Origin: a candidate division WOR-3 bacterium
GTDB taxonomy: Bacteria; Hydrothermota; Hydrothermia; UBA1063; CAJXJZ01
DNA: 64,000 nt
Assembly (NCBI GenBank): GCA_026986775.1
Contig: JALSNX010000004.1
Coordinates: 69,622-133,621 of the forward strand
Direction: 5' to 3'
This document shows, piece by piece, positions 28,929 to 46,400 of the stretch; position 1 is the stretch's first letter; each line of letters opens with the position of its first letter. A model generated the notes under the pieces. It made no database searches, was not told the origin of the DNA, and worked only from the letters and a program-made list of their open reading frames with translations. The position numbers were made by a program, and so were the translations under genes.

Positions 28929-30494
28929 ATGTTCTGGACTATTTTACTTGGACTTTCGCTCTTTTCCTATGAAGGGAACGTGGCGAGGGTAAGAACAGTG
29001 TACGGCGATGCAATGATATTGCCGTACGGGGCTGATGACTGGGAGTATCTCTTCAGAAACGATGTTATTACAGAAGGTGACGTGGTAAAAACTCTTGAGG
29101 ATTCAAGACTGGTGTTTACTTTTGGAAGAGGCAATGTTGTCTCTATGGGTGAGGATACAAAGGTTGAGGTCAATGCTCTTGATGATCATTTTTCTTTAAG
29201 ATTGCAGAGAGGGAAAATAAGGGTTATGTCAAGAGATGCTGAAGGTGCTGTTGATATTATGAGCACAGAGGTCTATGTGTATTCCTACAGTACAGTAAGA
29301 TTCCAGCGGCACGGAGCAATGGCAAAGGTTTCGGTAATAAGGGGCGAGGCTGATGTGGAAGGTGAAATTGTAAGAGCAGGTGAGATGGCAAGGATTTATC
29401 CAGATGGCAGAATTGTTGTAAGGAGAGAGTTTCATCACGACGATTTTGACAGATGGGCTTCAGGGTATGAAAGGCAGTACATAGTGATAAGAGAGGTAAG
29501 ATACGTTCCCGATGATATTTACATAGGCGTATATGACCTTGATAATTACGGACACTGGAGATACATAAGAGGATACGGCTGGGTCTGGATACCCGATGTT
29601 GGTCCGGACTGGAGACCCTATTATTACGGTCACTGGGTTTTCAGGGTGCGTTTTGGCTGGGTATGGGTCTCCTATGAAGAATGGGGTTGGGTGCCATATC
29701 ATTACGGTAGATGGGCATGGGTTTCAGGTGTCGGCTGGGTCTGGGTTCCGGGCTCTGAGTGGAGAGGCGCGTGGGTTGTATGGTATGAAGGGCCTTCATG
29801 GGTTTCCTGGGCACCCCTTGACCCATATGGAAACCCCATTGTTTATATAAATTATCGGGGCAGAAGAAGATGGGTGGCACCTGTGGTGGATTATCGCAGT
29901 TTCAGGAAACCTGTTTACAGATACAAACCTCCCAGAAATGGTGTGTATAAAAAGCCCGTTTATAGAACTGTCAATCTCAAACTCAACAAAGTAAATCTTA
30001 AAAAGTACGAAAAGCCCGTAATTTCGGATGTGCCATCCCACATAAAACCCGTATTCAGAGAAGAATGGAAACAGAAGGCAGAGAAAATCATAAAAAACCC
30101 GCAGATTGTCAAAAAACCTGTGTTCAAAGAAAAAGTGGAGAGAAGAAAAGATTACAGCATAAAAGTGGATAGGAATGTCAGAAAGGACAGAAGAGAACGA
30201 GTGAGAGATGAGGACAGAAATACCAGAGTAAAAATTAAAAATCCAGAAAGAGTCAGGAAAGAAGATAGAAGAAGAAATAAGAAGGATACCGTATTGCGGG
30301 ATTTTTCTAAGGAAAGACGCATTGACAGGGATAAAAGGGACTCAAGAAGAGAAAAAGACACCACGATAAGGAGAAAGCCGCATATACCTCAAAAGAGTAA
30401 AAAGGTCAGGAACAAAAGGAAGAAAGACAGAAAAGATAGAGAGAAAGAAGTTGATTTAATGAAGGTTAAGGTAAATAATAAAATAACGCCATGA
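28929..30494 (+). CDS. FecR-domain protein with three Trp-rich YxGxW...GWVWVP repeats and a ~190-aa polyampholyte (K/R/D/E) tail
   Basis: FecR-like N-domain; repeats YGHWRYIRGYGWVWIPD, YYGHWVFRVRFGWVWVS and HYGRWAWVSGVGWVWVPG. The C-terminal third is almost pure K/R/D/E. GGGAGGTGA Shine-Dalgarno, coupled to the upstream gene. Confidence 0.7.
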   Translation: MFWTILLGLSLFSYEGNVARVRTVYGDAMILPYGADDWEYLFRNDVITEGDVVKTLEDSRLVFTFGRGNVVSMGEDTKVEVNALDDHFSLRLQRGKIRVMSRDAEGAVDIMSTEVYVYSYSTVRFQRHGAMAKVSVIRGEADVEGEIVRAGEMARIYPDGRIVVRREFHHDDFDRWASGYERQYIVIREVRYVPDDIYIGVYDLDNYGHWRYIRGYGWVWIPDVGPDWRPYYYGHWVFRVRFGWVWVSYEEWGWVPYHYGRWAWVSGVGWVWVPGSEWRGAWVVWYEGPSWVSWAPLDPYGNPIVYINYRGRRRWVAPVVDYRSFRKPVYRYKPPRNGVYKKPVYRTVNLKLNKVNLKKYEKPVISDVPSHIKPVFREEWKQKAEKIIKNPQIVKKPVFKEKVERRKDYSIKVDRNVRKDRRERVRDEDRNTRVKIKNPERVRKEDRRRNKKDTVLRDFSKERRIDRDKRDSRREKDTTIRRKPHIPQKSKKVRNKRKKDRKDREKEVDLMKVKVNNKITP

Positions 30495-34074: not shown

Positions 34075-34268
34075 TTGTTTAACTTTACGAAGTCTAAAAT
34101 GTAAGTTATATTGGAAAATACAGGAAAATCTCTTGTTTTGACTCATATTTTTCCATAAGGAAAGACCTATGGAGTTTCCTTAACACACTCTGTATGAGCA
34201 ATGTCTGCTTTTTCCTGTTCGCATAACCCGAGATTTCTCCTTCTTATTATTTCATAAATTATCAAAAC

Positions 34269-34297
34269 TTGACAAATCCCCCCCCCTGTGTTATAAT
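34269..34297 (+). promoter_or_regulatory. perfect consensus sigma-70 promoter TTGACA-N17-TATAAT with TGn extended -10
   Basis: TTGACA at 34269-34274, exact 17-nt spacer, TGT then TATAAT at 34292-34297. Predicted transcription start is about 34304. Confidence 0.6.
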
Positions 34298-34304
34298 AAA
34301 AATG

Positions 34305-34318
34305 TCACCTGCAGGTGA
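34305..34318 (+). promoter_or_regulatory. 14-bp perfect palindrome TCACCTGCAGGTGA at the predicted +1 (candidate repressor operator)
   Basis: Perfect dyad immediately downstream of the consensus promoter and upstream of the Shine-Dalgarno and ATG at 34348. Confidence 0.5.
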
Positions 34319-34347
34319 TAAAAATAAAACTTAAAAAGGAGGAAGTC

Positions 34348-35280
34348 ATGAAAATGTTCAGGATAGTGTTTCTGGGTATGATTGTGTCTCTATCGTGTTC
34401 AAAGAATATGAAATTGGAGGATGATGCAGTCAGCAGTTTAAAGATTTTGAAAAACATCACGGAAGAATTATCATTTAGTCTGAATCATGGCAAAAGTAGA
34501 ATGTTCATGTTCAATGATTTCAAACTCACGGATATGAAAAATGATAGAAAAATGCCATTGAAAAAGGCGGTGAATATTGGCCTTGTGAGCAGGGATGCAT
34601 ATGATAGATTAAGGGCATTAATGCCAGAAGATAGTTTTGTCATGATAATGTGGGAAAGGTGGTTTAAGGCGTGGAAAGAAGGCAGGGTTGAACCCTATAT
34701 CACTTACGACCCCTTGAAAGATGAAAGAGAGATAAAAAAGATTCCTCTTTACAGGAATGGCGTTATTGAAAAATGGATAGATTTAAGGGATTTTGATAAG
34801 TATCCGGTGATAGTTATTTCACCTGAGTGGTGGGAAGGGGATGAAAGTGCTGAGTATCTTACAGGAGACAAAGGGCCGTTTAAAAATCGTGGTGACTTTA
34901 AGACGTTTTCCAGGCCGTATATATCCCAGATCAAAATTTATGGATGGTATGATGGAAGGAAGAGCTGGACCAATCCGGGATGGAGAATGGAAATATATAC
35001 TATTACTTATCCATTGGTAGCAGATTCATTAAACCATATACAGGAAGATCACAGAGATTTTGATGGTGTAGACGAGGGATACAAAACGTATAATGTGCAT
35101 GGCAATATACACTCAGGTTACAATGGATATGCCAGATTCAGGGTAAAAGTTATGGAGCAAGATGGCGGCCTTAGGTTCAATGATGACTATGTGGGGACTA
35201 TTACCATAAGTGGGTCGTACTGGCACGGTGTAAGAGGGCAAAATGTCTGGGTAAAATGTATAGATTTTTTCTCTCACTGA
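34348..35280 (+). CDS. lipoprotein, hypothetical (about 310 aa)
   Basis: GGAGG Shine-Dalgarno 5 nt before ATG at 34348. Signal peptide MKMFRIVFLGMIVSLSCSK with lipobox. Confidence 0.6.
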   Translation: MKMFRIVFLGMIVSLSCSKNMKLEDDAVSSLKILKNITEELSFSLNHGKSRMFMFNDFKLTDMKNDRKMPLKKAVNIGLVSRDAYDRLRALMPEDSFVMIMWERWFKAWKEGRVEPYITYDPLKDEREIKKIPLYRNGVIEKWIDLRDFDKYPVIVISPEWWEGDESAEYLTGDKGPFKNRGDFKTFSRPYISQIKIYGWYDGRKSWTNPGWRMEIYTITYPLVADSLNHIQEDHRDFDGVDEGYKTYNVHGNIHSGYNGYARFRVKVMEQDGGLRFNDDYVGTITISGSYWHGVRGQNVWVKCIDFFSH

Positions 35281-35281
35281 A

Positions 35282-37123
35282 ATGTTATTGCTATTAATTA
35301 TGATTATCACTCTTCCTGCGGCATTTTTGCCGCAGGAAGATACTGTTAAAGATACTGTTAAGTTTACATATGTATTACCAGAGATAAGCGTTGTATCCAC
35401 AAGTGAGCACCAGCTTGTGGGGCAAGTAAGGATAAAACAAAGGGATATATTAAACACCCCTTCTGCTATACTTCCTGACCCACTCCGATTAATAACAGTA
35501 TTTCCTTTTGTTGATGTAGAGGATGAGTTGTTTCCTGTAAACCTTTATATAAAAGGTGGAAGGCCTGAGGAAAACGCTGTATTTATAGAAGATTTTCCGG
35601 TTATATCTCCATACCACTTTGGATTTACAACCATCCTTCCATTAACGGCAATAGATTATTATGATTTCTATACCCTTGATATGCCACCCTATTTATCAAC
35701 TTCGATGACTTCTGCAATTAATTTCCATCTCGTAACAAAAAGATCTAAGAAGATTTATATTGACCCCACCTCCTCTTTAAGTTTTGCTATGTATAACAAT
35801 AACCTTTTTAAAAGTTTTAGATTTACAACACTATCATTACCCATTATGCTTGCATATAAAATGAAGTATATACAATATTTCTGGGATATTGCTTTAAAAT
35901 ATAAGATGGATAAAAATCGTAATGTAGTATTATTTGCAGGGTATGATAAATACCAAGACTCTTATGTGGAAAATATAGATTACCACAACTTCTCCCTTAC
36001 ACTTGGAGCTCATGTGTCCAGCGTTTCAGGCCTTTATCTTGGCGCTGATTTTTTTATATCACATGACCTCAAGGATACTATGGATTTAGCTCGTTTGAAA
36101 AAAATTATCATTGGTTATACTTTTAAACGTCTGAGAATTTCAGACAGAATTTCGTTGTATTCGGGATTTCAATTTTTAAAACCTATCATAAAACTAAGAA
36201 CACTTAGTGAAACGGATAGTTTATGGATTAAGAGAGTAAACACAGAGCCATATATCAGAACTTATTTTTCTTTTGTTTATACCCCTTTTATGAGTTTGAA
36301 ACTATATTCAGGAGCCAATATATATCTTGATAAAAATAAAAAATTCGCGGTTTTTACGCCAAAAATGAGCTACACTCTTTTAAAACTGGAAGATACCAGC
36401 TTCTTGAAAGTAAGTGCAGGTATAAATTCACAGTTTGAATCAGCAGTAAGCCTTTTGCCTGTGAAAGTAAGATTTAAAAACACATTTCCAATGCAATCAA
36501 TTTATTTGCAGGGCGAATTGTTTGGAAATAAAAGTAATGCTGGTGTATTTTATAGGTACTATCCTTCAATTTATTTTATGAGGGAATGTGCTCATGAATT
36601 TCTGGATGAAGGTGAAAAATATACCGAAGTAATTGACACCCTTGTTTTTGCCCGTAAAAGAGTAATTGGAGCGTATTTATCTTTTCATAAAGATATTAAA
36701 AAATTGAGCCTGTGGGGAGATTTTTCATACATGAAAGCCTCCATCACAGAGAATGAAGGTATTTCATATCAAATGCCTTTTACGTCCGCTTTTTCGGGCA
36801 AATTTTTTGCTCAGTTGCACATAAGTAGAAAGATAGATCTAAGCATTACTGCTATCGGAAGAAGTAATGTGATGCAACCTGTGTTTTATGCATTAAGGGG
36901 AGAAGATATTATAGGTTATAGTAAACCTATTATAAAATCGCTTGGACCCTACTTTAGACTTGATGCAGGTCTCACAATACACATCCGGGTTTTTAAGCGG
37001 AAAGGTTTGCTCAGCACAGGTCTGTACAACATTATTTTTAGAAAACCAGAAGTAAGTGATATTTATGATAAAACATATTTAAAATTTCCAGTACCCTATG
37101 CAGGGCTGGAAGTAAATCTATGA
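35282..37123 (+). CDS. TonB-dependent receptor-like outer-membrane protein (plug-like N-domain plus beta-barrel), divergent
   Basis: N-terminal plug-like block (ILPDPLRLITVFPFVDVED...VNLYIKGGRPEENAVFIEDFPVIS) followed by about 500 aa of alternating beta-strand-like sequence. The C-terminus is atypical (ends NL). Confidence 0.5.
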   Translation: MLLLLIMIITLPAAFLPQEDTVKDTVKFTYVLPEISVVSTSEHQLVGQVRIKQRDILNTPSAILPDPLRLITVFPFVDVEDELFPVNLYIKGGRPEENAVFIEDFPVISPYHFGFTTILPLTAIDYYDFYTLDMPPYLSTSMTSAINFHLVTKRSKKIYIDPTSSLSFAMYNNNLFKSFRFTTLSLPIMLAYKMKYIQYFWDIALKYKMDKNRNVVLFAGYDKYQDSYVENIDYHNFSLTLGAHVSSVSGLYLGADFFISHDLKDTMDLARLKKIIIGYTFKRLRISDRISLYSGFQFLKPIIKLRTLSETDSLWIKRVNTEPYIRTYFSFVYTPFMSLKLYSGANIYLDKNKKFAVFTPKMSYTLLKLEDTSFLKVSAGINSQFESAVSLLPVKVRFKNTFPMQSIYLQGELFGNKSNAGVFYRYYPSIYFMRECAHEFLDEGEKYTEVIDTLVFARKRVIGAYLSFHKDIKKLSLWGDFSYMKASITENEGISYQMPFTSAFSGKFFAQLHISRKIDLSITAIGRSNVMQPVFYALRGEDIIGYSKPIIKSLGPYFRLDAGLTIHIRVFKRKGLLSTGLYNIIFRKPEVSDIYDKTYLKFPVPYAGLEVNL

Positions 37124-37660: not shown

Positions 37661-39421
37661 ATGTGGTTTTTATTATTTATTATCCTAAATGGTGTGGATG
37701 GCGATACGCTTCCCACCTACACATTTGATACGCTCAAGATAAAGGCAAAGCAGGGTTGTTCGTTTACTGGAGAGGTATTTTCCACAAACGACATAAAGAG
37801 ATTCCCGTATTTTCTTGAACCTGATATTACAAGATACATAGAACGCTTACCCGGTGTAATATCAGGAAGTGATTTTGTTTATCCCTCCGGTTTATACATT
37901 AAAGGTGCATCTCCATGGGAAAGCGATTTTTATTTTGACGGTATTCCTGTTATAGCGCCCTTTCATTTTATAAGTATTACAGGAATACCAATAAGCAGTG
38001 CCGAAAGGATAATATATTTTGAGAACTTCCACTCTTTTTCGGTATATGAGACACCTCAGTCTGCCTTCAATATTATTCCTTATTTTCGCGATGGTAAAAA
38101 TGAAATATACCAGAGTTTACTTAACACAACAGTTTCCCTGAATACCGGACATCTTAATTTTACAGGTAGATTCTTTTATCCATCTTTGATTCTTGATATA
38201 CTTAAGAAGAACGATTATTCTCTCTCAACATACGACCTCTTATTTGCCATGAAAGCAAAATCCATGAATGTTTCAGGTTTTTTTATGAGGGAACATATAG
38301 AAAAGAAAGATACCTCTTCAGATAATCTTTTTTCCAGTGGATATTCTCTTGGAGTAAGGGCAGGAATCGGAATTTTTGCTTTTCTATATTCAGAGGCAAA
38401 AAGATATGGAATGGCTGAAAGGGATACTCTTTATAACTATTTTCTTAAAGTTTTTGAGACGCAAATCAAACCGACTAAAAATATTGCCTTCAGAATAAGA
38501 AGGTATGAAGATACTAAAAATTCCCTGAATCTCGCACGAGTATGGTTCGGAAAAGAGATTGAAGAGATGGCGTTTAATACATCTTTCGTGGTCTATTACC
38601 ACAAAAAACATATTTTTCCGTTTCTAAGTGGCGAAATATACAAAAAATTTACTTTTAAGGATAGAGCAAGTGCCAGACTCTCTCTGAGTTTAAGGAGCGA
38701 ATACAAAAGCGGATACGATATGCTGTATGAAGGACCCCTTATACCCTCAAAACCTTTTGCGCCCGATAAGATAATAAGGTCAGATATAAGCCTCAGGAAA
38801 ATTATGAAAAAGGGCACATGGGAAATGAATATGTATTTTTCACACCATTTTAATTACAGATTTTACCATGTTGACAGGTTTATTAGGTTGAGGTCACCGT
38901 TTTCTTTTTTAGAAGGTAATTTCACACGGGAGAGGGATTCTATAAGTTTATGGAGTGGTGCCAAGGATGTGGCAGGGATTAGCCTGAAATTAACATATCT
39001 ACTTTCAAGATACGCCGGATTTGAATTCCTTATCGGTGGTAATATGGTGGTGGTGGTGAATGCACAGGGTTACAGATATTATCCGTCCTATAATACGCCT
39101 TTTAAATTGAATGCAGGGTTGTTTTTCAAAAAGCATGACTTTAGAGCTTCCATGGATGTTTCCTATAATTATGGTGGCTGGTATGCCACGAGGGTAATCA
39201 ATTACAATTTTACACCGGTGATTGAAAACGGGTTTTATTACTATAAACTTCCTTCCGAATTGTGGATATCTTTAGCTTTTTCCAGAAAATTTCCGGTGGG
39301 TAAAAGAGAGGTGGAGGCTGGAATTTCCATGAATAGACTTGGCATAAAAAAGAGTTTTTCATTTTACCTGTTCCCTAAATTGTATAACATTCCATCGTTG
39401 TTTGTTAATATGGAGTTTTAG
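37661..39421 (+). CDS. TonB-dependent receptor-like outer-membrane protein, paralog of 35282..37123
   Basis: Plug-like block (IERLPGVISGSDFVYPSGLYIKGASPWESDFYFDGIPVIAPFHF), beta-strand-rich body and a C-terminal Phe (NMEF). Confidence 0.5.
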   Translation: MWFLLFIILNGVDGDTLPTYTFDTLKIKAKQGCSFTGEVFSTNDIKRFPYFLEPDITRYIERLPGVISGSDFVYPSGLYIKGASPWESDFYFDGIPVIAPFHFISITGIPISSAERIIYFENFHSFSVYETPQSAFNIIPYFRDGKNEIYQSLLNTTVSLNTGHLNFTGRFFYPSLILDILKKNDYSLSTYDLLFAMKAKSMNVSGFFMREHIEKKDTSSDNLFSSGYSLGVRAGIGIFAFLYSEAKRYGMAERDTLYNYFLKVFETQIKPTKNIAFRIRRYEDTKNSLNLARVWFGKEIEEMAFNTSFVVYYHKKHIFPFLSGEIYKKFTFKDRASARLSLSLRSEYKSGYDMLYEGPLIPSKPFAPDKIIRSDISLRKIMKKGTWEMNMYFSHHFNYRFYHVDRFIRLRSPFSFLEGNFTRERDSISLWSGAKDVAGISLKLTYLLSRYAGFEFLIGGNMVVVVNAQGYRYYPSYNTPFKLNAGLFFKKHDFRASMDVSYNYGGWYATRVINYNFTPVIENGFYYYKLPSELWISLAFSRKFPVGKREVEAGISMNRLGIKKSFSFYLFPKLYNIPSLFVNMEF

Positions 39422-39422
39422 A

Positions 39423-40136
39423 ATGAGAAAAGGTATTCTGTTCCTGATAGTTATGCTATTGGCAGGGTGCATGAAGCATGATGTTCCGCCTTATGGTGTT
39501 GTTCTCAGTATTTCGCAGGAAGGTTTGCGGCTCTTTACCAGAGAGCCATCCTTACCTGTAAGATATGACTCGCTTTATACCATGGAAGGCCTGCCCCTGA
39601 ATTTAAATTCTGCTTTTTTAATTTTCAAGGATTTCAACGATACTCTTTACTTCGCAGATAGCGGAAACTTCCTTTTTTTGAATATCTATCCCGAAACTAT
39701 CTATGAAAGGGAGGTTGAACTCAATATATTTACTGAAAACGGCCTTTTGAAAGAAAATTTTAGACTTCCTGAAAAGTTGAATCTTAACTTTGATAAAGAT
39801 ACTCTGTTCATTTCGGATACTCTCCGTTTTAATCGTCGTCTCCTTGAAAATGAGTATTGTGAGGTTGTGTTTACAGCAGGTTCTGATAGTTTTTACGCAA
39901 GTGCAAGGGACAGTGCCGGGCCTTTTGATGGTTTTATTGTTCTGTGCCCGGATAGTTTTTACAGAGTCAATGCTAACGGAAGAACCGAAAGGGGTCTTTC
40001 ACCGGGTATATACGAGTTGAATATAAACTTACATACGGTTTATACAAAACCCTTTACAGATTTTCCCGGTTTTTTATTCTGGGATTTTTACAGGGTGGAA
40101 GAGAAGATTCTGATCGTTGACAAAGAATCCTTTTGA
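39423..40136 (+). CDS. lipoprotein, hypothetical
   Basis: ATG at 39423 gives MRKGILFLIVMLLAGC with lipobox. Overlaps the stop of the upstream receptor-like gene. Confidence 0.55.
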   Translation: MRKGILFLIVMLLAGCMKHDVPPYGVVLSISQEGLRLFTREPSLPVRYDSLYTMEGLPLNLNSAFLIFKDFNDTLYFADSGNFLFLNIYPETIYEREVELNIFTENGLLKENFRLPEKLNLNFDKDTLFISDTLRFNRRLLENEYCEVVFTAGSDSFYASARDSAGPFDGFIVLCPDSFYRVNANGRTERGLSPGIYELNINLHTVYTKPFTDFPGFLFWDFYRVEEKILIVDKESF

Positions 40137-40241
40137 TAATATTTTGTGAATATCAAACCGTTATTATAAGATAGATTTTTCTTGTCATTTCCCATTAAAT
40201 GATTTAAAATATGGATAAGTGCTTTTAAAGGAGGCTAAGTA

Positions 40242-41240
40242 ATGATGATTGTACTGCTCGGATTTTTATTTGGCGTCTTTATAATGCTCTCAGAACTCAA
40301 TAAATTTGATACAATAAGTGGGATGGCTATTTTAAATGATCTAAGAATTGCCAAGGCTCTCCTTGTGGCGATAGGGATAGGCATTATCCTTATATTTTTT
40401 GAGGTTAAATTAAATGTTGCATCCTATCATTTAAAGCCTTTTAATCTGGGTGGAGTTGTTATAGGGGGTATTTTATTTGGAGTTGGCATGGCTATCCTTG
40501 GTTACTGTCCTGGAACCCTGATAATATCAGCAGGCGAAGGCTCGCTTGATGCTATGATTGGAATTGTTGGGGGACTCGTCGGTGGGCTTGTATTTACACT
40601 TTTACTGCCTTTTGTGAAGATTTTTATTGGCCCGCATTTTGGAAAAATCTCAATTTTTACTCTACTTGGGAACAATACTACTTTTACATTCCTTGTTTCT
40701 CTTGTTATATCTCTGTTTATGATCTATTCAGCATTTTTACTGAATAAGAAAGATGAAAATAAGAGTATGGACTGGTTTTATGCCGGACTTTTACTTGGAC
40801 TTCTAAATCCGATTATTTTCCTGAAATTCGTACAAAATAGACCCATAGGAGCTTCAACTGCCTATCCATATATAATAGATCGGCTGTTAGGGTTGACCTC
40901 AAATCCATACTTTTTAAAAATTCAAAAACCTGGTGAATGGGAAGTGCTATTCCTGCTCGGTGCTTTTGTAGCCGGATTTACTTTCTCTATCTTGAGAAGA
41001 AAGTTTGAATTAAAGTTAATTCAGCCACGGTGGGAGAAGTATAAAGGCAACCTGCCATTAAAACGGATTTTTTATGCCTTTGTAGGTGGATTTATCCTTA
41101 TTTTCGGAGCAAGGTTGGCAGGTGGTTGCACCAGTGGTCATATTCTCTCTGGGGGTATGCAACTTTCAATAAGCAGTATAGTTTTTGCTGTATTTGTATT
41201 TCTTAGTCTCGTTATTACAGGAAGGATTTTTTACAGATAA
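40242..41240 (+). CDS. YeeE/YedE-family inner-membrane protein (putative thiosulfate/sulfur-compound transporter)
   Basis: Two pseudo-repeated halves, each with a conserved Cys motif (LGYCPGT and AGGCTSGH); polytopic; AAAGGAGG Shine-Dalgarno. Confidence 0.8.
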   Translation: MMIVLLGFLFGVFIMLSELNKFDTISGMAILNDLRIAKALLVAIGIGIILIFFEVKLNVASYHLKPFNLGGVVIGGILFGVGMAILGYCPGTLIISAGEGSLDAMIGIVGGLVGGLVFTLLLPFVKIFIGPHFGKISIFTLLGNNTTFTFLVSLVISLFMIYSAFLLNKKDENKSMDWFYAGLLLGLLNPIIFLKFVQNRPIGASTAYPYIIDRLLGLTSNPYFLKIQKPGEWEVLFLLGAFVAGFTFSILRRKFELKLIQPRWEKYKGNLPLKRIFYAFVGGFILIFGARLAGGCTSGHILSGGMQLSISSIVFAVFVFLSLVITGRIFYR

Positions 41241-41254
41241 AAGGAGGAGATATT

Positions 41255-42034
41255 ATGCTAAAGGAAAATAGATGGAAAATAATTGTTGGTGTCAGTTTAG
41301 CAGTTGTATCATGGCTAACTCCTGTCCAGGCCATGGCTACTGAGAAAGTCTATGTGTATGGCCCCGGTGGACCATTTCCTGCTGTAAATGAAGTTGCAAA
41401 GGTGTTTTCTAACAGGTATAATGTGGATGTAATTGTTGTAAAAGGTCCAACATCCAGATGGCTGAAAAAAGCACAGGATAATGCTGATATTATTTATAGT
41501 GGAGCAGAGTTTATGATGCAGAATTTCGTATGGCTTATGAAAGGAAAAATAGATGAAAAGACTATACAACCTTTGTATCTCAGACCTTCTGGCATTTTGG
41601 TTAGAAAAGGTAATCCAAGACATATTAAAGGATTTGAAGATTTATTGAAACCGGGTATTAGAGTGATGGTTGTGAATGGTGCGGGACAGATGGGACTATG
41701 GGAGGATATGGCAGGAAAACAGGGAAATATTGAGACTATAAGAGCATTAAGAAAAAATATTGTATACTATGCGCATAATAGTGCTGAGGCAAAGGAAAAA
41801 TGGATAAAGGATACCACAATAGATGCATGGTTAATATGGAATATCTGGCAGGTATCCAACCCTGATATAGCTGATTTTATTGCTGTTTCAGATAAATACG
41901 TAATATACAGGGATTGTGGAGTTGCATTGACATTTAAAGGTGAAAAAAATCCGTTTGCTAAAAAGTTTTATGAATTTCTACAATCAGAAGAGGCAAAGAA
42001 AATTTTTAAAAAATGGGGCTGGATTGTGGAATAG
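41255..42034 (+). CDS. periplasmic substrate-binding protein, ModA/WtpA-like (oxyanion-binding PBP2 fold)
   Basis: Signal peptide, 259 aa, ModA-like pattern (VYVYGPGGPFPAVNEVAKVF...ADIIYSGAEF...GIRVMVVNGAG...). AAGGAGG Shine-Dalgarno. No permease/ATPase genes adjacent. Confidence 0.6.
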   Translation: MLKENRWKIIVGVSLAVVSWLTPVQAMATEKVYVYGPGGPFPAVNEVAKVFSNRYNVDVIVVKGPTSRWLKKAQDNADIIYSGAEFMMQNFVWLMKGKIDEKTIQPLYLRPSGILVRKGNPRHIKGFEDLLKPGIRVMVVNGAGQMGLWEDMAGKQGNIETIRALRKNIVYYAHNSAEAKEKWIKDTTIDAWLIWNIWQVSNPDIADFIAVSDKYVIYRDCGVALTFKGEKNPFAKKFYEFLQSEEAKKIFKKWGWIVE

Positions 42035-42094
42035 GGCAATCTTGGCATATTAGTCTGAAGATAAATCTCTTTATGCCCAATAGTCATTAAATTT

Positions 42095-42131: not shown

Positions 42132-42204
42132 GCTGGCGTAGCTCAATCGGCAGAGCAGCGCATTCGTAATGCGCAGGTTGGCGGTTCAAGTCCGCCCGCC
42201 AGCT
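42132..42204 (+). tRNA. tRNA-Thr (anticodon CGT)
   Basis: Cloverleaf: acceptor GCTGGCG/CGCCAGC, D-arm GCTC..GAGC, anticodon stem GCGCA/TGCGC with loop TTCGTAA, T-arm GGCGG-TTCAAGT-CCGCC; 73 nt, CCA not encoded. Confidence 0.9.
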
Positions 42205-42215
42205 TGTAATATGCT

Positions 42216-43490
42216 ATGCTTATAGAATCTGTCTCCGGTATGAGAGGTATAGTCGGGAAGGATCTTCTTCCCGATGTGGTAGTTGACAGAGTCCTTCGCT
42301 TTGCAGCATTCACCGGAGGCAGAAGGTTCCTTATTGCTCGGGATACGAGAAAGTCCGGTGAGGCCATATCTTCCATTGTAAAAGGTGTGCTCACATTTTA
42401 TGGGATGGATGTCTATGATGCAGGGATAGTTCCCACTCCCACTGCACTTTTTTATGTAAGGGATAGAAATCTTGATGGTGGTTTTATAATAACGGCAAGT
42501 CATAACCCTTCTGAGTATAACGGTATTAAATTTGTAACTGAAGATGGATTGTTTCCTCTGGCATGGGAAAGTAAGTATTATCCTGAATACAGTGGTGCCT
42601 CTGGAAGAGAAATCAATGTCCGTGATGCTGTGGAGGTGCATTTGAATCGTATTCTCAGACACTTTGATGGCCAAAAGAAGAAACTGAGAATCTGTGTGGA
42701 TACAAATGGAGGTGCTGCCTTTTTCGCACTGCCTGAACTTTTAAGAAGAATGGGTCATGATGCGATTACACTGAACAGTGAACCGAGCGGTGTATTTGTT
42801 CACAATCCAGAGCCAAGAAAGGAACATCTTGTTGAACTGGACTATCTTTTAAGAAGTGGGGCATGTGATATTGGGTTTGGCACTGACCCTGATGCGGATA
42901 GACTTATATGCGGGATAAAAGGCATGGGTATTCTGAGCGAGGAATTTACTCTTCCCCTTGCATTATTGGGATACGGAAAGAAGGCAACCAATGTGGTTGT
43001 TAATTATTCAACATCCATGCTGGTTGAGTTTGCTGCAGAGAAACTTGGTGCCCGGGTTATAAGAACAAAGGTTGGTGAGGCCAATGTGGTGAGTAAAATG
43101 AAAGAAGTTGATGCCTTTCTTGGGGGTGAAGGAAATGGTGGTGTTATTTTCTCCCATATAAACTCTGCGAGGGATTCGCTTGTGGGAGCGTTTTATATAA
43201 CAAAACTCGCTGAAAATGAGGATATTGGTGAAATTGTATCGGAATTTCCAGGATATTATCTTGCGAAGGAAAAAATAGGTATTGATGACAATGTGGACCT
43301 TTCGGTTCTGGAAAGCAAAATCAAGGCTGATTTTGTAAGTAAGGACGATGGTTTTTATTTTAAGTGGAAAAATGCATGGTTGCACGTAAGAAAGTCAAAT
43401 ACAGAGCCCATTATAAGGATTTACGCTGAAGCCGATAGTGAAGACAGGGCAAGAGAACTTGTGAGAAAAGCCATTTCCATTATAGCGTAA
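42216..43490 (+). CDS. phosphohexomutase (GlmM/ManB family phosphoglucosamine/phosphomanno-mutase)
   Basis: Active-site serine motif ITASHNPSEYNGIKF, the metal-binding DPDADR loop and GEGNGG. The true start may be the internal MRGIVG Met, since the track start abuts the tRNA. Confidence 0.85.
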   Translation: MLIESVSGMRGIVGKDLLPDVVVDRVLRFAAFTGGRRFLIARDTRKSGEAISSIVKGVLTFYGMDVYDAGIVPTPTALFYVRDRNLDGGFIITASHNPSEYNGIKFVTEDGLFPLAWESKYYPEYSGASGREINVRDAVEVHLNRILRHFDGQKKKLRICVDTNGGAAFFALPELLRRMGHDAITLNSEPSGVFVHNPEPRKEHLVELDYLLRSGACDIGFGTDPDADRLICGIKGMGILSEEFTLPLALLGYGKKATNVVVNYSTSMLVEFAAEKLGARVIRTKVGEANVVSKMKEVDAFLGGEGNGGVIFSHINSARDSLVGAFYITKLAENEDIGEIVSEFPGYYLAKEKIGIDDNVDLSVLESKIKADFVSKDDGFYFKWKNAWLHVRKSNTEPIIRIYAEADSEDRARELVRKAISIIA

Positions 43491-46400
43491 TGCTGTTTTT
43501 CGTCCTCTTACAATTCCTGTTTGCTCAAGTTGATTCGGTTTCCTGTAAACTCTCTCAGTTTGAGAACTGGGGGCTTTATACTGTGGGAGATTATTCTGAT
43601 TCTGTTTTCATGGATACTGAAAATGGGGTGGTTTTCTTTGTAAGATTTTACAGAGGGCTTCCTGTTGATACATACAGGATAGAGCCGCTTTCTTTTTATC
43701 TGGACAGCATCCGCTCTGAATTGTTGCTGAATGAGTATCTTAAGATTACTCCTGAAAGCACCAGGGCAAAAGCATCACAGTCAGGGCTTATTCCAACCAT
43801 TGATGTTCCAATAAGATTTCCTAAAGCACTCAGTTTCCTCGGAGAGGGAGGAAAACTTGATATAAGGGGTTCTGAGGATATTTTACTTGGTGGTCAGTCA
43901 ACATACATGCATGACCCGTCAATGGGTGCTGATACAGGAAGTTCCTTCCCCACACTTAATTTAGAAAGTTCAATGAACGTGCTTCTTACAGGCACAGTGG
44001 GAACAAAACTACATATTACGCTGGATTATGACCAGAAAAGAGAAAATCAGAATAAAAATATTGTGAGGCTTAAATACACAGGTGACGAAGACGAGGTCGT
44101 GCAGAGTATAGAGGCAGGGCAGACGAGTTTTTCCATACAGGGAACACAGTTTGCGAGTTTTGCAGGGGGTGGAAGTAAGGCAGGACTTTTCGGCCTTAAA
44201 GGGATATTTAATTTTGGTGGTGTTGAGGTTCAGGCCGTTCTTACAAGGGAAACAGGTGAAGCCTCTCAGGGCACATTCGTTGGAGGTGCAAGGCAGGATA
44301 CCCTTGTTCTTTATGACAGGGATTATCTCAAAAATAAGTTCTTTTATATTGATGAGCCTGATTCTATAATCAAGATATATGTTCTTGTGCACGATGGTTC
44401 CGGAGTTCAGTATGGTGAAATATATCACTGTGTTGCCATCTACTATGACCCTCTTACGAGAAGTTTTGATAGTACTCTGATGGAAGATACGAGGTTCAAG
44501 CTCCTTGAGGACCAGACCGATTTTTATTTTTACCCCTCCAGTAAGGTTCTTGAGCTTAAAAATCCTCTGGATGAAGGAAATATCATGGGGGTGGCTTATG
44601 AGACCCAGGATGGCAGATGGGTGGGCACTCCATTTGATACTACGATGGATACGTATACATTGAGGCTTATTAGACCTCAGAGGTACATGAACAATCTTGA
44701 TACGCTCACCTCCCGTGTTGATACATTGAAGGCGAATCTGTTTAAACTGGAACTTAAGAACATCTATGCTCTTAACTTTTACGGGGTATCTGAATATGAG
44801 GGGCTTTCAATTGATGATATAACACTCACCATATACAAGGATTCTCTTGGTTCCAATGTGTGGAAATCTGCAGAAAATGGTAAAACCTACTTGCAGCTTC
44901 TTGGTCTTGATAATGACGGTGATGGCAGGATAGACCCGACAGTAACGGTGAATGGTCGTATAATTCAGGTATTTGATGGAATAAGGAAGTATCTTATTTT
45001 CCCTCAACCTTATCCTTTCATGTCTGATTCACTACAGGATCCTGATTCCATTATATACAAGAAGCCGGAACTGAGATATAATGAAGGCCAGAAATACAAA
45101 CTTGTTTTTGTAAGAAGGGCACGCCTGAGCAGGGTTATTAATCTCAATCAGATGGATATAGTTGAAGGCTCGGAAGTGGTAAAGTACAATGGTCGTATCC
45201 TCCAGCGAAATAGGGACTACACAATAGATTACAATATGGGAACGATAACACTGCTTGACAGTTCTATATTGAATGACCCCACCGCAAGAATAGAGATAAA
45301 CTATGAGTATACTCCTCTGTTTCAATCAACATCACGTTCTCTTTATGGTTTTCGTGCGAAGTATGGAGATGAACGTTTTAGAATAGGGGCCACGTTGCTT
45401 GGAAGAAGTGAAACACAGGATGCAAAAAGGCCTAAAATAGGGCAGGAGCCAGTAAAGAACATGATACTTGAAAGCGATTTTCAGATAAATCAGGACATAA
45501 ACTTTCTTGAGCCTGTTTTGAGGAAGATTACCTGGAATACACAGACGAGAGCACCCAACCTGAGATTGCAGGGGGAGATTGCAAGGTCAATACCCAATTT
45601 AAATACAGCAGGTTATGGCTATATTGATGACATGGACAATTCCAAAACATCAAGGAGTGTGTATCTTAATTATACTTACTGGAAATACGGTTCAAGACCC
45701 GTGCTTTCTGATAACACATACGCACCGCTGGACCTTCTGTGTGATAAAGTAAACTGGTTTACCTTTACGAATTTATTTACGCGCGGTGATATATACGATA
45801 ATCTCACTCCAGAAGAATCAAGACAGAGTGCAACTGTCCTTGCTATAAGGGTGAAGCCACACAATAATGATACTGCTTCTTATGCTTCACTTTCCCAGCT
45901 TGTTGATGACAGAGGTGTGGACGTTTCTGATATGGAATATCTTGAGGTTATTGTTCGTGGAGATAGGGGAAAAATACACATCGACCTTGGCTCATATATT
46001 TCTGAGGATGCTATCTGGAGGGATAGAAATGGAAATATAAAGGGATGGCATCATGATTCACTTTCTGTGATAGATACTGAGGATAAAAATAATGATGGTC
46101 AGTGGATTGCCGGTGAGGAGGATACGGGGCTTGATGGTGTTTATGGTGATGACGATGACTGGACCTCTTCTTCTCCTGACGATGGGAACGACGATTTTAA
46201 AGGGTATGATTCCCGCACAGGAGACTGGTCACATGTAAACGGAACGGAGCATAATGGCATATTTGATACAGAGGAACTGAAGGTTGATGGAGTACTTGAC
46301 ACAACCAATGACTATTTTGAATACGTGATAGACCTTTCTGACACAAATTCTCCATATCTTAAATCCATAAATGAAAGAGGGTTCAGACATTATCTCATAC

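What the first reader, a model, noticed from the sequence alone, without database searches (positions are those of the whole stretch)
34269..34318. Perfect consensus promoter with a palindromic operator at +1
TTGACA-N17-TGT-TATAAT is an ideal sigma-70 promoter and predicts very strong transcription. The perfect 14-bp dyad TCACCTGCAGGTGA sits exactly on the predicted transcription start. This fits tight repression and conditional high-level expression of the lipoprotein / TonB-dependent-receptor-like operon. No regulator gene is adjacent, so the repressor is encoded elsewhere.
Basis: seen in the sequence. Interest (0 to 1): 0.5.

Follow-up and report, generated by a model that had tools for sequence, protein, structure and literature searches.

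The report
Poly-C-tuned promoter of receptor operon

Summary
TTGACA-N17-TATAAT (34269-34297, with a TG extended -10) is the only 12/12 site in the window, and the perfect dyad TCACCTGCAGGTGA (34305-34318) begins one base after the predicted start (G34304). It is the only C/G homopolymer of 7 or more in the 64 kb.

In a 97%-identical strain the promoter is unchanged except that the run is C7, giving a 15-nt spacer. A paralogous operon has C8 (16 nt) in two other assemblies and an interrupted CCCCTCCC in a third. About 65 bp (-35, C run, -10, dyad, A-rich leader) is roughly 91% conserved between paralogs whose proteins are only 37-49% identical.

Best reading: a canonical sigma-70 promoter whose strength is set by a slippage-prone poly-C spacer. 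This is transcriptional phase variation of the Neisseria fetA/porA type. It drives a lipoprotein plus divergent TonB-dependent-receptor-like operon in an uncultured bacterium that carries type IX secretion genes.

The dyad is conserved, but its role is unresolved. I put a 5'-terminal mRNA stem-loop at about 0.45 and a repressor operator at about 0.35. No regulator gene is adjacent. This is a new member of a known kind, of moderate interest.

The parts
34240..34268 (+). A/T-rich stretch upstream of the -35, a possible UP element
   Evidence: Read from the sequence: CTTATTATTTCATAAATTATCAAAAC. Inference only. This stretch is not conserved in the paralogous promoters, which are also A/T-rich there.
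34269..34274 (+). -35 hexamer TTGACA
   Evidence: Invariant in all five related promoters, within ACTTGACAAAT.
34278..34286 (+). C9 homopolymer inside the 17-nt spacer (34275-34291); the proposed slippage tract
   Evidence: It is the only C/G run of 7 or more in 64 kb and in about 106 kb of related loci. It is C7 in the 97%-identical strain L002, C8 in L009 and L013, and CCCCTCCC in L010 and L003. It is the only one of 18 homopolymers of 6 or more that differs in length between the window and L002.
34289..34297 (+). Extended -10, TGT-TATAAT (hexamer 34292-34297)
   Evidence: TATAAT is also present in L002, L009 and L013. It is degenerate in L010 after a 3-nt deletion.
34304..34304 (+). Predicted transcription start (G, the 7th base after the -10)
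   Evidence: Inference from the standard -10 to +1 distance. Not mapped. The TG before the dyad and the 7-nt distance are the same in both paralog types.
34305..34318 (.). Perfect 14-bp dyad TCACCTGCAGGTGA. As RNA the stem extends to 34303-34320 through a G-U pair.
   Evidence: The 15 bases TGTCACCTGCAGGTG are invariant in the window, L002, L009, L013 and L010. The RNA hairpin has -8.1 kcal/mol, z = -4.0. The consensus fold has 6 pairs, with one U-A to U-G change and no compensatory change.
34319..34335 (+). A-rich leader TAAAAATAAAACTTAAA
   Evidence: ATAAAAATAAAA is conserved between the paralog promoters.
34336..34342 (+). Shine-Dalgarno AAGGAGG, 5 nt before the ATG
34348..35280 (+). 310-aa probable lipoprotein (signal peptide, invariant Cys17-Ser-Lys); no known family
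35282..37123 (+). 613-aa divergent TonB-dependent-receptor-like outer-membrane protein
   Evidence: No Pfam or NCBIfam hit of its own. A family profile hits 289 proteins; 7 of 10 checked carry Plug and/or TonB_dep_Rec barrel domains, aligned to residues about 30-230.
37661..39421 (+). 586-aa second receptor-like protein, related to the 613-aa protein at its N-terminal region
   Evidence: ortholog of L013_592, and N-terminal similarity to the homologs of the 613-aa protein (L013_624, L004_620, L011_647).
39402..40136 (+). Second probable lipoprotein of about 237-244 aa (MRKGILFLIVMLLAGC)

Best explanation
The interval is the core of a conserved promoter-and-leader cassette of about 65-80 bp. 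The cassette transcribes an operon for cell-surface proteins: two lipoprotein-like genes and two TonB-dependent-receptor-like genes.

RNA polymerase with the housekeeping sigma factor recognises a consensus -35, an extended consensus -10 and, in this strain, the optimal 17-nt spacing.

That spacing is set by a run of nine C's. Homopolymer runs of this length gain and lose bases by slipped-strand mispairing during replication. Descendants would then carry 16-, 15- or 18-nt spacers and transcribe the operon much less. This is heritable, reversible phase (or 'volume') variation of a surface receptor. The window carries the high-expression allele.

The dyad immediately after the start site is part of the conserved cassette. 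I think it is most likely transcribed as a stem-loop with no unpaired 5' nucleotides, which protects the mRNA from 5'-end-dependent decay and so maximises output in the ON state (sub-claim, about 0.45). It could instead, or also, bind a dimeric repressor encoded elsewhere (about 0.35).

Shown here: the sequence features, their conservation, and the tract-length polymorphism between strains.

Inferred: the start site, slippage within a lineage, the effect of spacer length on expression, and the role of the dyad.
For: Promoter:
- It is the only 12/12 site in the window, with a TG extension.
- Both tRNA genes in the window have TTGACA-16-TATACT or TTGACG-17-TATAAT upstream, so the consensus applies in this organism.
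- A strong Shine-Dalgarno and an ATG follow.

Poly-C tract:
- C9 is the only C/G run of 7 or more in 64 kb. Runs of 7 or more in all related loci lie only in this spacer.
- The window and L002 are 97.0% identical over 6.2 kb with five indels, and one of these is CC in the tract.
- Of 18 homopolymers of 6 or more in the aligned 7.3 kb, only this one changes length.
- Spacers are 17 (window), 15 (L002) and 16 (L009 and L013). In L010 and L003 the tract is interrupted and a 3-nt deletion lies next to it.

Cassette conservation:
- About 91% identity over 65 nt between paralogs. The proteins are 37-49% identical, and the DNA upstream of the -35 is unrelated.

Surface products:
- Signal peptide with an invariant Cys.
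- Profile links to Plug-domain receptors.
- The C-terminal half of the lipoprotein is hypervariable between L013 and P0002.

Precedent:
- Poly-C between -35 and -10 of fetA, and the porA spacer tract (PMC5320596).

Hairpin:
- -8.1 kcal/mol, z = -4.0.
- The 7-nt distance from the -10 is kept while the intervening bases differ, AAAAATG against AATTCTG.
- The one change at a predicted pair in L010 is A to G opposite U, which keeps an RNA pair but breaks the DNA symmetry. A second A to G opposite U lies at the outer extension of the stem, as read.
- 5'-terminal stem-loops stabilise mRNA (review PMC3997798).
Against: - Only differences between strains and between assemblies are seen. Switching within a lineage is not shown.
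- There are only two alleles at this exact locus. Homopolymer lengths in metagenome assemblies can be wrong, although no other homopolymer differs.
- C7-C9 is at the short end of tracts known to switch fast. The mismatch-repair status of the organism is unknown.
- The TG extended -10 may buffer the effect of spacer length, so the result could be modulation and not on/off.
- No second C/G tract was seen in about 106 kb. Classic phase-variable genomes have many, but only a few percent of this genome was seen.
- For the hairpin: there is no compensatory double change. The loop TGCA is itself palindromic, which a hairpin does not need and an operator would favour. The whole 5' UTR does not fold better than shuffles (z = -0.7 to -1.9). 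The start site is only predicted.
Confidence: 0.6

Rival explanations
1. The dyad is an operator for a dimeric repressor encoded elsewhere. The repressor sits on +1 to +15 and blocks RNA polymerase, so the operon is expressed strongly only when an unknown signal lifts repression. The C run is then incidental spacer filling.
For: - A perfect 14-bp palindrome, centre included, overlaps the predicted start.
- The 15-nt core is invariant in five promoters of three diverged lipoprotein lineages, while the 5 bases between the -10 and the core differ.
- From memory only: the extended half-site TATCACC matches the phage lambda operator half-site, so this is a plausible helix-turn-helix target.
- Phase-variable promoters that also carry repressor sites are known (NadR at nadA, PMC2791445).
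Against: - No regulator gene is adjacent at any of the three loci. The TetR gene near L010 belongs to an efflux operon and is absent at the other loci.
- No other copy of the dyad was found in about 106 kb of related genome. None was found next to this promoter type in 185,579 species genomes or in viral contigs.
- There is no Fur box (best match 12/19).
- This model does not explain the maintained and polymorphic C run.
- The dyad starts exactly at +1/+2. An operator does not need that position.
Confidence: 0.35
2. This is a fixed, constitutive strong promoter. The C-run length differences are assembly or sequencing errors, or neutral drift between strains. The cassette is similar between paralogs only because of recent gene conversion. 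The dyad has no function.
For: - 14-bp palindromes are not rare in the window: 6 seen against about 4 expected.
- All sequences come from metagenome assemblies.
- One short-read contig (L001) starts 5 bases after the C run, which could reflect poor sequence quality there.
- Uniform conservation of the whole cassette, including the leader and the loop, is what recent copying would give.
Against: - None of the other 17 homopolymers of 6 or more differs between the two strains.
- The tract region differs in both ortholog pairs.
- The same C8 is found in two independent assemblies.
- A C9 run is very improbable by composition in this 40% G+C DNA, and it is the only long C/G run.
- Gene conversion limited to 65 bp at three loci in different genomic contexts would itself imply selection for this module.
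Confidence: 0.15
3. On/off switching works by DNA inversion, as in fimS or Bacteroides-type invertible promoters, or by differential methylation of the CTGCAG/CCTGCAGG site in the dyad. Tract slippage plays no part.
For: - Surface receptor operons in relatives of Bacteroidota are often controlled by invertible promoters (general knowledge).
- The dyad contains PstI, SbfI and BspMI-type recognition sequences (read from the sequence).
Against: - No inverted repeats bracket the promoter. The two pairs found lie wholly upstream.
- No recombinase gene lies nearby.
- CTGCAG, CCTGCAGG and CACCTGC are not clearly avoided in the window (12 against 20 +/- 4.4; 2 against 1.4; 7 against 8.5).
- All five alleles have the promoter in the same orientation.
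Confidence: 0.03

Closest known systems
Neisseria fetA (frpB) promoter, with a poly-C tract between -35 and -10 (Carson et al. 2000, as cited in PMC5320596); also the porA poly-G spacer (van der Ende et al. 1995)
   Same: - A C homopolymer forms most of the -35/-10 spacer.
- Its length differs between strains.
- The gene product is a TonB-dependent outer-membrane receptor.
- Spacing sets the level of transcription.
   Different: - The tract here is shorter: C7-C9 against C10-C14.
- The organism is an uncultured bacterium with type IX secretion genes and is not a host-adapted Neisseria.
- There is no Fur box.
- The promoter hexamers are perfect consensus with an extended -10.
- Switching and the effect on expression are not demonstrated here.
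Neisseria hpuAB, tbpBA and lbpBA bipartite receptors, in which a lipoprotein gene precedes a TonB-dependent receptor gene (my own knowledge)
   Same: - The operon order is surface lipoprotein, then receptor.
- hpuAB is phase-variable through a homopolymer.
   Different: - There is no detectable sequence homology. The lipoprotein here has no known family.
- The hpuA tract lies in the coding sequence, not in the promoter.
- The operon here carries two receptor-like genes and two lipoprotein-like genes.
5'-terminal stabilising stem-loops of ompA and papA mRNAs (Emory, Bouvet and Belasco 1992; Bricker and Belasco 1999; listed in PMC3997798)
   Same: - A short, stable hairpin sits at the very 5' end of the mRNA of an abundant surface protein.
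- It is followed by an A/U-rich leader and a strong ribosome-binding site.
   Different: - The 5' end is not mapped here.
- There is no half-life data.
- The stem is only 5-7 bp.
- The loop is itself palindromic, so the DNA is a perfect dyad.
Operators overlapping +1, such as lacO1; also lambda OR/OL half-sites TATCACC (from memory)
   Same: - Dyad symmetry overlaps the start site of a strong promoter.
- The extended half-site TATCACC is identical to the lambda consensus half-site.
   Different: - The centre is 4 bp, against 3 bp in lambda operators.
- No cognate repressor has been identified.
- There is a single site, not tandem sites.
- There is no phage context, and the pattern has no match in viral contigs.

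Membership tests
Transcriptional phase variation by a homopolymer in the promoter spacer (fetA/porA/opc type) | A homopolymer tract lies between the -35 and -10 hexamers | tested here: met
   C9 at 34278-34286, inside the 17-nt spacer.
Transcriptional phase variation by a homopolymer in the promoter spacer (fetA/porA/opc type) | Tract length is polymorphic among close relatives while the flanks stay the same | tested here: met
   C9 against C7 with otherwise identical promoter DNA. C8 and an interrupted tract occur in the paralogous promoter.
Transcriptional phase variation by a homopolymer in the promoter spacer (fetA/porA/opc type) | High-frequency, reversible length change within one lineage or population | not testable with these tools
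   This needs read pile-ups or cultures. The only hint is that the short-read contig L001 starts 5 bases after the tract, which is weak.
Transcriptional phase variation by a homopolymer in the promoter spacer (fetA/porA/opc type) | Expression level depends on tract length | not testable with these tools
   Inferred from the known dependence of sigma-70 promoters on spacing (17 nt is optimal). No expression data.
Transcriptional phase variation by a homopolymer in the promoter spacer (fetA/porA/opc type) | The controlled gene encodes a surface-exposed structure | tested here: met
   Lipoprotein-type signal peptide with an invariant Cys. The 613-aa protein's profile hits Plug and TonB_dep_Rec proteins. 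Surface exposure itself is inferred.
Repressor operator overlapping the transcription start | A dyad-symmetric site overlaps the core promoter or +1 | tested here: met
   A 14-bp perfect palindrome at predicted +2 to +15. The start site is predicted, not mapped.
Repressor operator overlapping the transcription start | The site is conserved in orthologous or paralogous promoters | tested here: met
   TGTCACCTGCAGGTG is invariant in five promoters.
Repressor operator overlapping the transcription start | A cognate DNA-binding protein is identified | tested here: inconclusive
   No regulator gene next to the window locus, L013 or L002. A TetR gene 5.4 kb upstream in L010 belongs to an efflux operon. 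The rest of the genome was not available.
Repressor operator overlapping the transcription start | Further copies elsewhere in the genome (a regulon) | tested here: inconclusive
   In about 106 kb of related DNA the dyad occurs only at these promoters. The collection scans required the -35 context, so they do not test this.
5'-terminal mRNA stabilising stem-loop (ompA/papA type) | A stem-loop begins within 0-2 nt of the mRNA 5' end | tested here: inconclusive
   With the predicted +1 at G34304 the stem starts at +1/+2. The 7-nt distance from the -10 is conserved. The start site is not mapped.
5'-terminal mRNA stabilising stem-loop (ompA/papA type) | The hairpin is thermodynamically stable | tested here: met
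   -8.1 kcal/mol, z = -4.0, with 0 of 200 shuffles as good for the 20-nt element. It is weaker in L010, at -4.6.
5'-terminal mRNA stabilising stem-loop (ompA/papA type) | Covariation preserves base pairs | tested here: inconclusive
   Six pairs, with one one-sided change (U-A to U-G) and no compensatory change among four sequences.
TonB-dependent receptor (the 613-aa product) | The protein itself passes the Plug (PF07715) and barrel (PF00593) models | tested here: not met
   No Pfam or NCBIfam family at E <= 0.01 and no meaningful PDB sequence match. The AlphaFold model is unusable, with pLDDT 25.8.
TonB-dependent receptor (the 613-aa product) | Remote homology to bona fide receptors over the plug and the start of the barrel | tested here: met
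   The family profile gives 289 hits at E <= 1e-3. Residues about 30-230 align to the plug regions of 700-800-aa proteins that carry Plug and/or TonB_dep_Rec domains.
Invertible promoter (fimS or Bacteroides type) | Inverted repeats bracket the promoter | tested here: not met
   Only two weak pairs were found, both entirely upstream of the promoter.
Fur-regulated receptor promoter | A Fur box overlaps the promoter | tested here: not met
   The best match to GATAATGATAATCATTATC is 12/19, in the A-rich leader.

The most novel reading that the evidence does not exclude
The roughly 65-bp unit is a portable 'contingency expression cassette' that this uncultured lineage places in front of diversifying surface-receptor operons in different genomic contexts. 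It consists of a consensus -35, a slippery poly-C spacer, a consensus -10, a +1 dyad and an A-rich leader. It would combine stochastic on/off switching (poly-C) with a second layer at the dyad: mRNA protection, or a lambda-like repressor site with a 4-bp centre. That would make it a case of pathogen-style contingency loci in a free-living, uncultured bacterium, plausibly used to escape phages or predators that use the receptor.
Probability: 0.3. Interest if true: 0.6.

Novelty: new member of a known kind. Interest (0 to 1): 0.45.

Why it matters
Promoter-spacer homopolymers that switch surface proteins on and off are textbook biology in a few host-adapted pathogens (Neisseria, Haemophilus, Bordetella, Mycoplasma). 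They are rarely documented in uncultured lineages known only from metagenomes.

If read-level data confirm switching here, three things follow:
- Contingency loci would be shown to operate in such a bacterium, on a receptor family with no annotated function.
- The lipoprotein/receptor pair would be flagged as being under fluctuating selection, for example as a phage receptor or a nutrient-uptake trade-off.
- Annotators would gain a compact, recognisable promoter module for this lineage.

There is also a practical point. Metagenome bins collapse such tracts to one length, so expression state cannot be read from a consensus assembly.

Tried and rejected
- **Species-genome scan.** I scanned 185,579 species genomes for TTGACAAAT-N(10-38)-CACCTGCAGGTG. 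The four hits all lie inside coding DNA of unrelated bacteria and are chance matches. The organism could therefore not be named.
- **Viral contig scan.** No match.
- **Metagenome scan.** Only two loci, L009 and L010.
- **Protein searches.** The lipoprotein and the receptor each gave only 2-3 relatives, so deep comparative analysis was impossible.
- **AlphaFold models.** Both proteins came out too poor to use, with pLDDT 51.6 and 25.8. No fold search was run.
- **Solved structures and NCBIfam.** Nothing useful.
- **Rfam.** Only noise on the promoter and leader at a relaxed threshold. At gathering thresholds the window has just the two tRNAs.
- **Short-read contig on the upstream side of the C run.** Look-ups of the two small upstream ORFs found nothing on record.
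- **A +1 hairpin as a general feature of distant homologous operons.** L004 has an 18-bp palindrome before its Shine-Dalgarno. L011 has a short inverted repeat after a TATAAT. L014 has none and shares different upstream motifs with L004. I rejected this as evidence either way.
- **Other regulatory models.** Invertible promoter, Fur box and restriction-site avoidance were all negative.
- **Literature search for the sample and assembly accessions.** Nothing found.

Full report
**1. The observation**

The sequence at 34269-34318 is as described:
- TTGACA at 34269-34274
- a 17-nt spacer, AATCCCCCCCCCTGTGT, at 34275-34291
- TATAAT at 34292-34297, preceded by TGT (an extended -10)
- seven bases, AAAAATG
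- the perfect 14-bp palindrome TCACCTGCAGGTGA at 34305-34318

After the dyad come an A-rich leader, the Shine-Dalgarno AAGGAGG (34336-34342) and an ATG at 34348.

The scan scores the site 12/12 with a TG. It is the only 12/12 site in the window, against 0.16 expected per shuffled window. Only four sites reach 11/12 or better, and two of the other three lie directly upstream of tRNA-Thr and tRNA-Leu. The organism therefore uses the canonical -35/-10 consensus, and the site is very likely a real promoter.

The dyad by itself is not rare. The window has six perfect 14-bp palindromes against about four expected.

**2.

Nine of the 17 spacer bases are a C homopolymer (34278-34286). This is the only C or G run of 7 or more in the 64-kb window; the next longest are 6. 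In all related DNA fetched later, about 106 kb with the window, the only C/G runs of 7 or more are in this same spacer.

**3. Related sequences**

The downstream protein is very rare, with three relatives among 5.8 billion proteins.

| Locus | Source | Relation | C tract | Spacer |
|---|---|---|---|---|
| window | - | reference | C9 | 17 nt |
| L002 | GCA_054027995.1 | same locus, 97.0% identical strain | C7 | 15 nt |
| L009 | JGI contig | paralogous operon | C8 | 16 nt |
| L013 | GCA_053996815.1 | paralogous operon | C8 | 16 nt |
| L010 / L003 | JGI contig / short-read contig | paralogous operon | CCCCTCCC, with an adjacent 3-nt deletion | -10 degraded |

- **Window against L002.** The two are 97.0% identical over 6.2 kb with five indels, one of which is CC in the tract. 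From within the upstream gene to the Shine-Dalgarno region the DNA is otherwise identical. Of 18 homopolymers of 6 or more in the 7.3 kb shared by the two strains, only this one changes length. General homopolymer error in the assemblies is therefore unlikely.
- **Paralogous loci.** The lipoprotein is 37-49% identical to the window's. L009 and L013 have a consensus TATAAT, the same 7-nt distance to the same dyad, and the same leader.
- **The likely second locus of the window's own genome.** L010 and L003 carry the interrupted tract but keep the dyad, with its last base changed from A to G. L003 comes from the short-read sample that also holds a contig (L001) 100% identical to the window. The window's own genome therefore probably carries this second locus.
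- **Extent of the cassette.** Similarity between paralog promoters runs from ACTTGACAAAT to ATAAAAATAAAA, about 91% over 65 nt. DNA upstream of the -35 is unrelated, and the three loci sit in different genomic contexts: small membrane ORFs, fmt-def-yajC, and a TetR-OEP-HlyD-AcrB operon.

**4. The operon**

- Gene 1 (34348-35280) has a signal peptide and an invariant Cys-Ser-Lys, so it is a probable lipoprotein. It has no Pfam, NCBIfam or PDB match.
- Gene 2 (35282-37123, 613 aa) has no direct family hit. A three-sequence profile finds 289 proteins at E <= 1e-3. Among the hits checked, 700-900-aa proteins carry CarboxypepD_reg, Plug and TonB_dep_Rec barrel domains, and these align to residues about 30-230 of the query. 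I read it as a divergent TonB-dependent-receptor-like protein. By Pfam's own threshold it is not a member.
- Genes at 37661-39421 and 39402-40136 are a second receptor-like protein and a second probable lipoprotein. Orthologs occur in a different gene order in L013.
- The C-terminal half of the lipoprotein is almost unalignable between L013 and P0002, while the N-terminal half is well conserved. This is what a surface domain under diversifying selection would show.
- The window also encodes a type IX secretion SprA homolog and a protein with a type IX sorting tail. This suggests the Fibrobacteres-Chlorobi-Bacteroidetes group. The strong Shine-Dalgarno sites and sigma-70 consensus argue against Bacteroidia proper (inference). 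The species could not be named.

**5. Mechanism**

The best-supported model is transcriptional phase variation by slipped-strand mispairing in the poly-C spacer.
- The window carries the optimal 17-nt allele.
- The C8 and C7 alleles give 16 and 15 nt. For sigma-70 promoters these are progressively weaker (established knowledge).
- The TG extension may leave residual activity, so this may be modulation rather than strict on/off.
- The precedent is exact. The poly-C tract between the -35 and -10 of the gonococcal TonB-dependent receptor gene fetA varies between strains (C10-C14) and sets expression. The porA spacer tract behaves likewise (PMC5320596).

Shown here: the tract, its uniqueness, its conservation as a tract, and its length polymorphism between close relatives. 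Not shown: switching within a lineage and the effect on expression.

**6. The dyad**

The dyad is clearly part of the conserved cassette, but the data do not settle its role.

For an RNA role:
- With +1 at G34304 the transcript starts GUCACCUGCAGGUGAU and folds with no unpaired 5' base. The energy is -8.1 kcal/mol, z = -4.0.
- The 7-nt distance from the -10 is kept in both paralog types although the bases in between differ.
- The stem extends beyond the DNA palindrome through a G-U pair.
- In L010 the one change at a predicted pair is A to G opposite U, which keeps RNA pairing but breaks DNA symmetry. A second A to G opposite U sits at the outer extension of the stem (read).
- 5'-terminal stem-loops protect ompA and papA mRNAs (PMC3997798).

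For an operator:
- The palindrome is perfect through its centre (TGCA), which a hairpin loop does not require.
- There is no compensatory covariation.
- The extended half-site TATCACC equals the lambda operator half-site (from memory).

Against an operator:
- No regulator gene is adjacent at any locus.
- No other copies were found in about 106 kb.
- There is no Fur box.

I put the hairpin at about 0.45, the operator at about 0.35, and both or neither for the rest. The two are not mutually exclusive. An invertible-promoter design is excluded.

**7. Verdict**

The main regulatory feature was missed.

This is a new member of a known kind, the promoter-spacer homopolymer contingency locus, in an unusual organism and on an uncharacterised receptor family. 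Interest is moderate. The decisive test is a read-level count of tract lengths in the source samples.

Noticed in passing
window 40133-42087: A 1,955-bp segment carrying a sulphur-transport gene (PF04143, 40242-41240) and a solute-binding protein gene (PF13531, 41255-42034) is absent from the 97%-identical strain L002. There the second lipoprotein gene is followed directly by the tRNA-Thr region and the phosphoglucomutase gene. This is a two-gene indel just upstream of tRNA-Thr (42132-42204).
   Followed up: partly
window about 39036-39050 (inside the 586-aa receptor-like gene): A (TGG)n trinucleotide repeat differs by one in-frame unit between the window and L002. It is a second slippage-type polymorphism in the same operon.
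   Followed up: no
window 37283 and 37419: Two 1-nt indels relative to L002 (A against AA, and T3 against T4) change the small ORFs between the two receptor-like genes: one 80-aa ORF here, against 85-aa and 75-aa ORFs in L002. None has a Pfam match. These may be decaying or variable small genes.
   Followed up: partly
L013 6439-7383 against P0002 (L010/L003): The paralogous lipoproteins are highly similar in the N-terminal 170 residues or so and almost unalignable in the C-terminal half. This suggests a hypervariable exposed domain. In contrast, the window's lipoprotein and P0001 differ almost only in the signal peptide.
   Followed up: partly
L004 5690-5870 and L014 2790-2930: Distant homologous operons share other upstream motifs: AAATAGTACAAAAGTACTGTAA, TTACACTTTGCA(A/G)ACTT, and repeated TGTCACAAAAATGTGACA-like inverted repeats in L004. 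L004 also has an 18-bp perfect palindrome, TTGATAGCGCGCTATCAA, just before its ribosome-binding site, which L014 lacks. These loci appear to use a different regulatory scheme.
   Followed up: no
L011 3920-3960: Upstream of the receptor homolog P0007, a TATAAT is followed after 3 nt by the inverted repeat ATGTGG-TT-CCACAT. Two G+C-rich hairpins lie further upstream. It may be another dyad at a start site, or chance.
   Followed up: no
L010 12431-12470: In the paralog with the degraded promoter, the left arm of the dyad (UCACCU) can pair with the Shine-Dalgarno region (AGGUGA) instead of with its own right arm, at -7.8 kcal/mol. The arm sequences also resemble the 3' end of 16S rRNA and its complement (from memory).
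   Followed up: no
window 28929-30494 and 43490-49075: A FecR-like/DUF6600 protein lies 4 kb upstream of the promoter, and a type IX secretion SprA homolog lies downstream. Neither is linked to the promoter, but both help place the organism.
   Followed up: no
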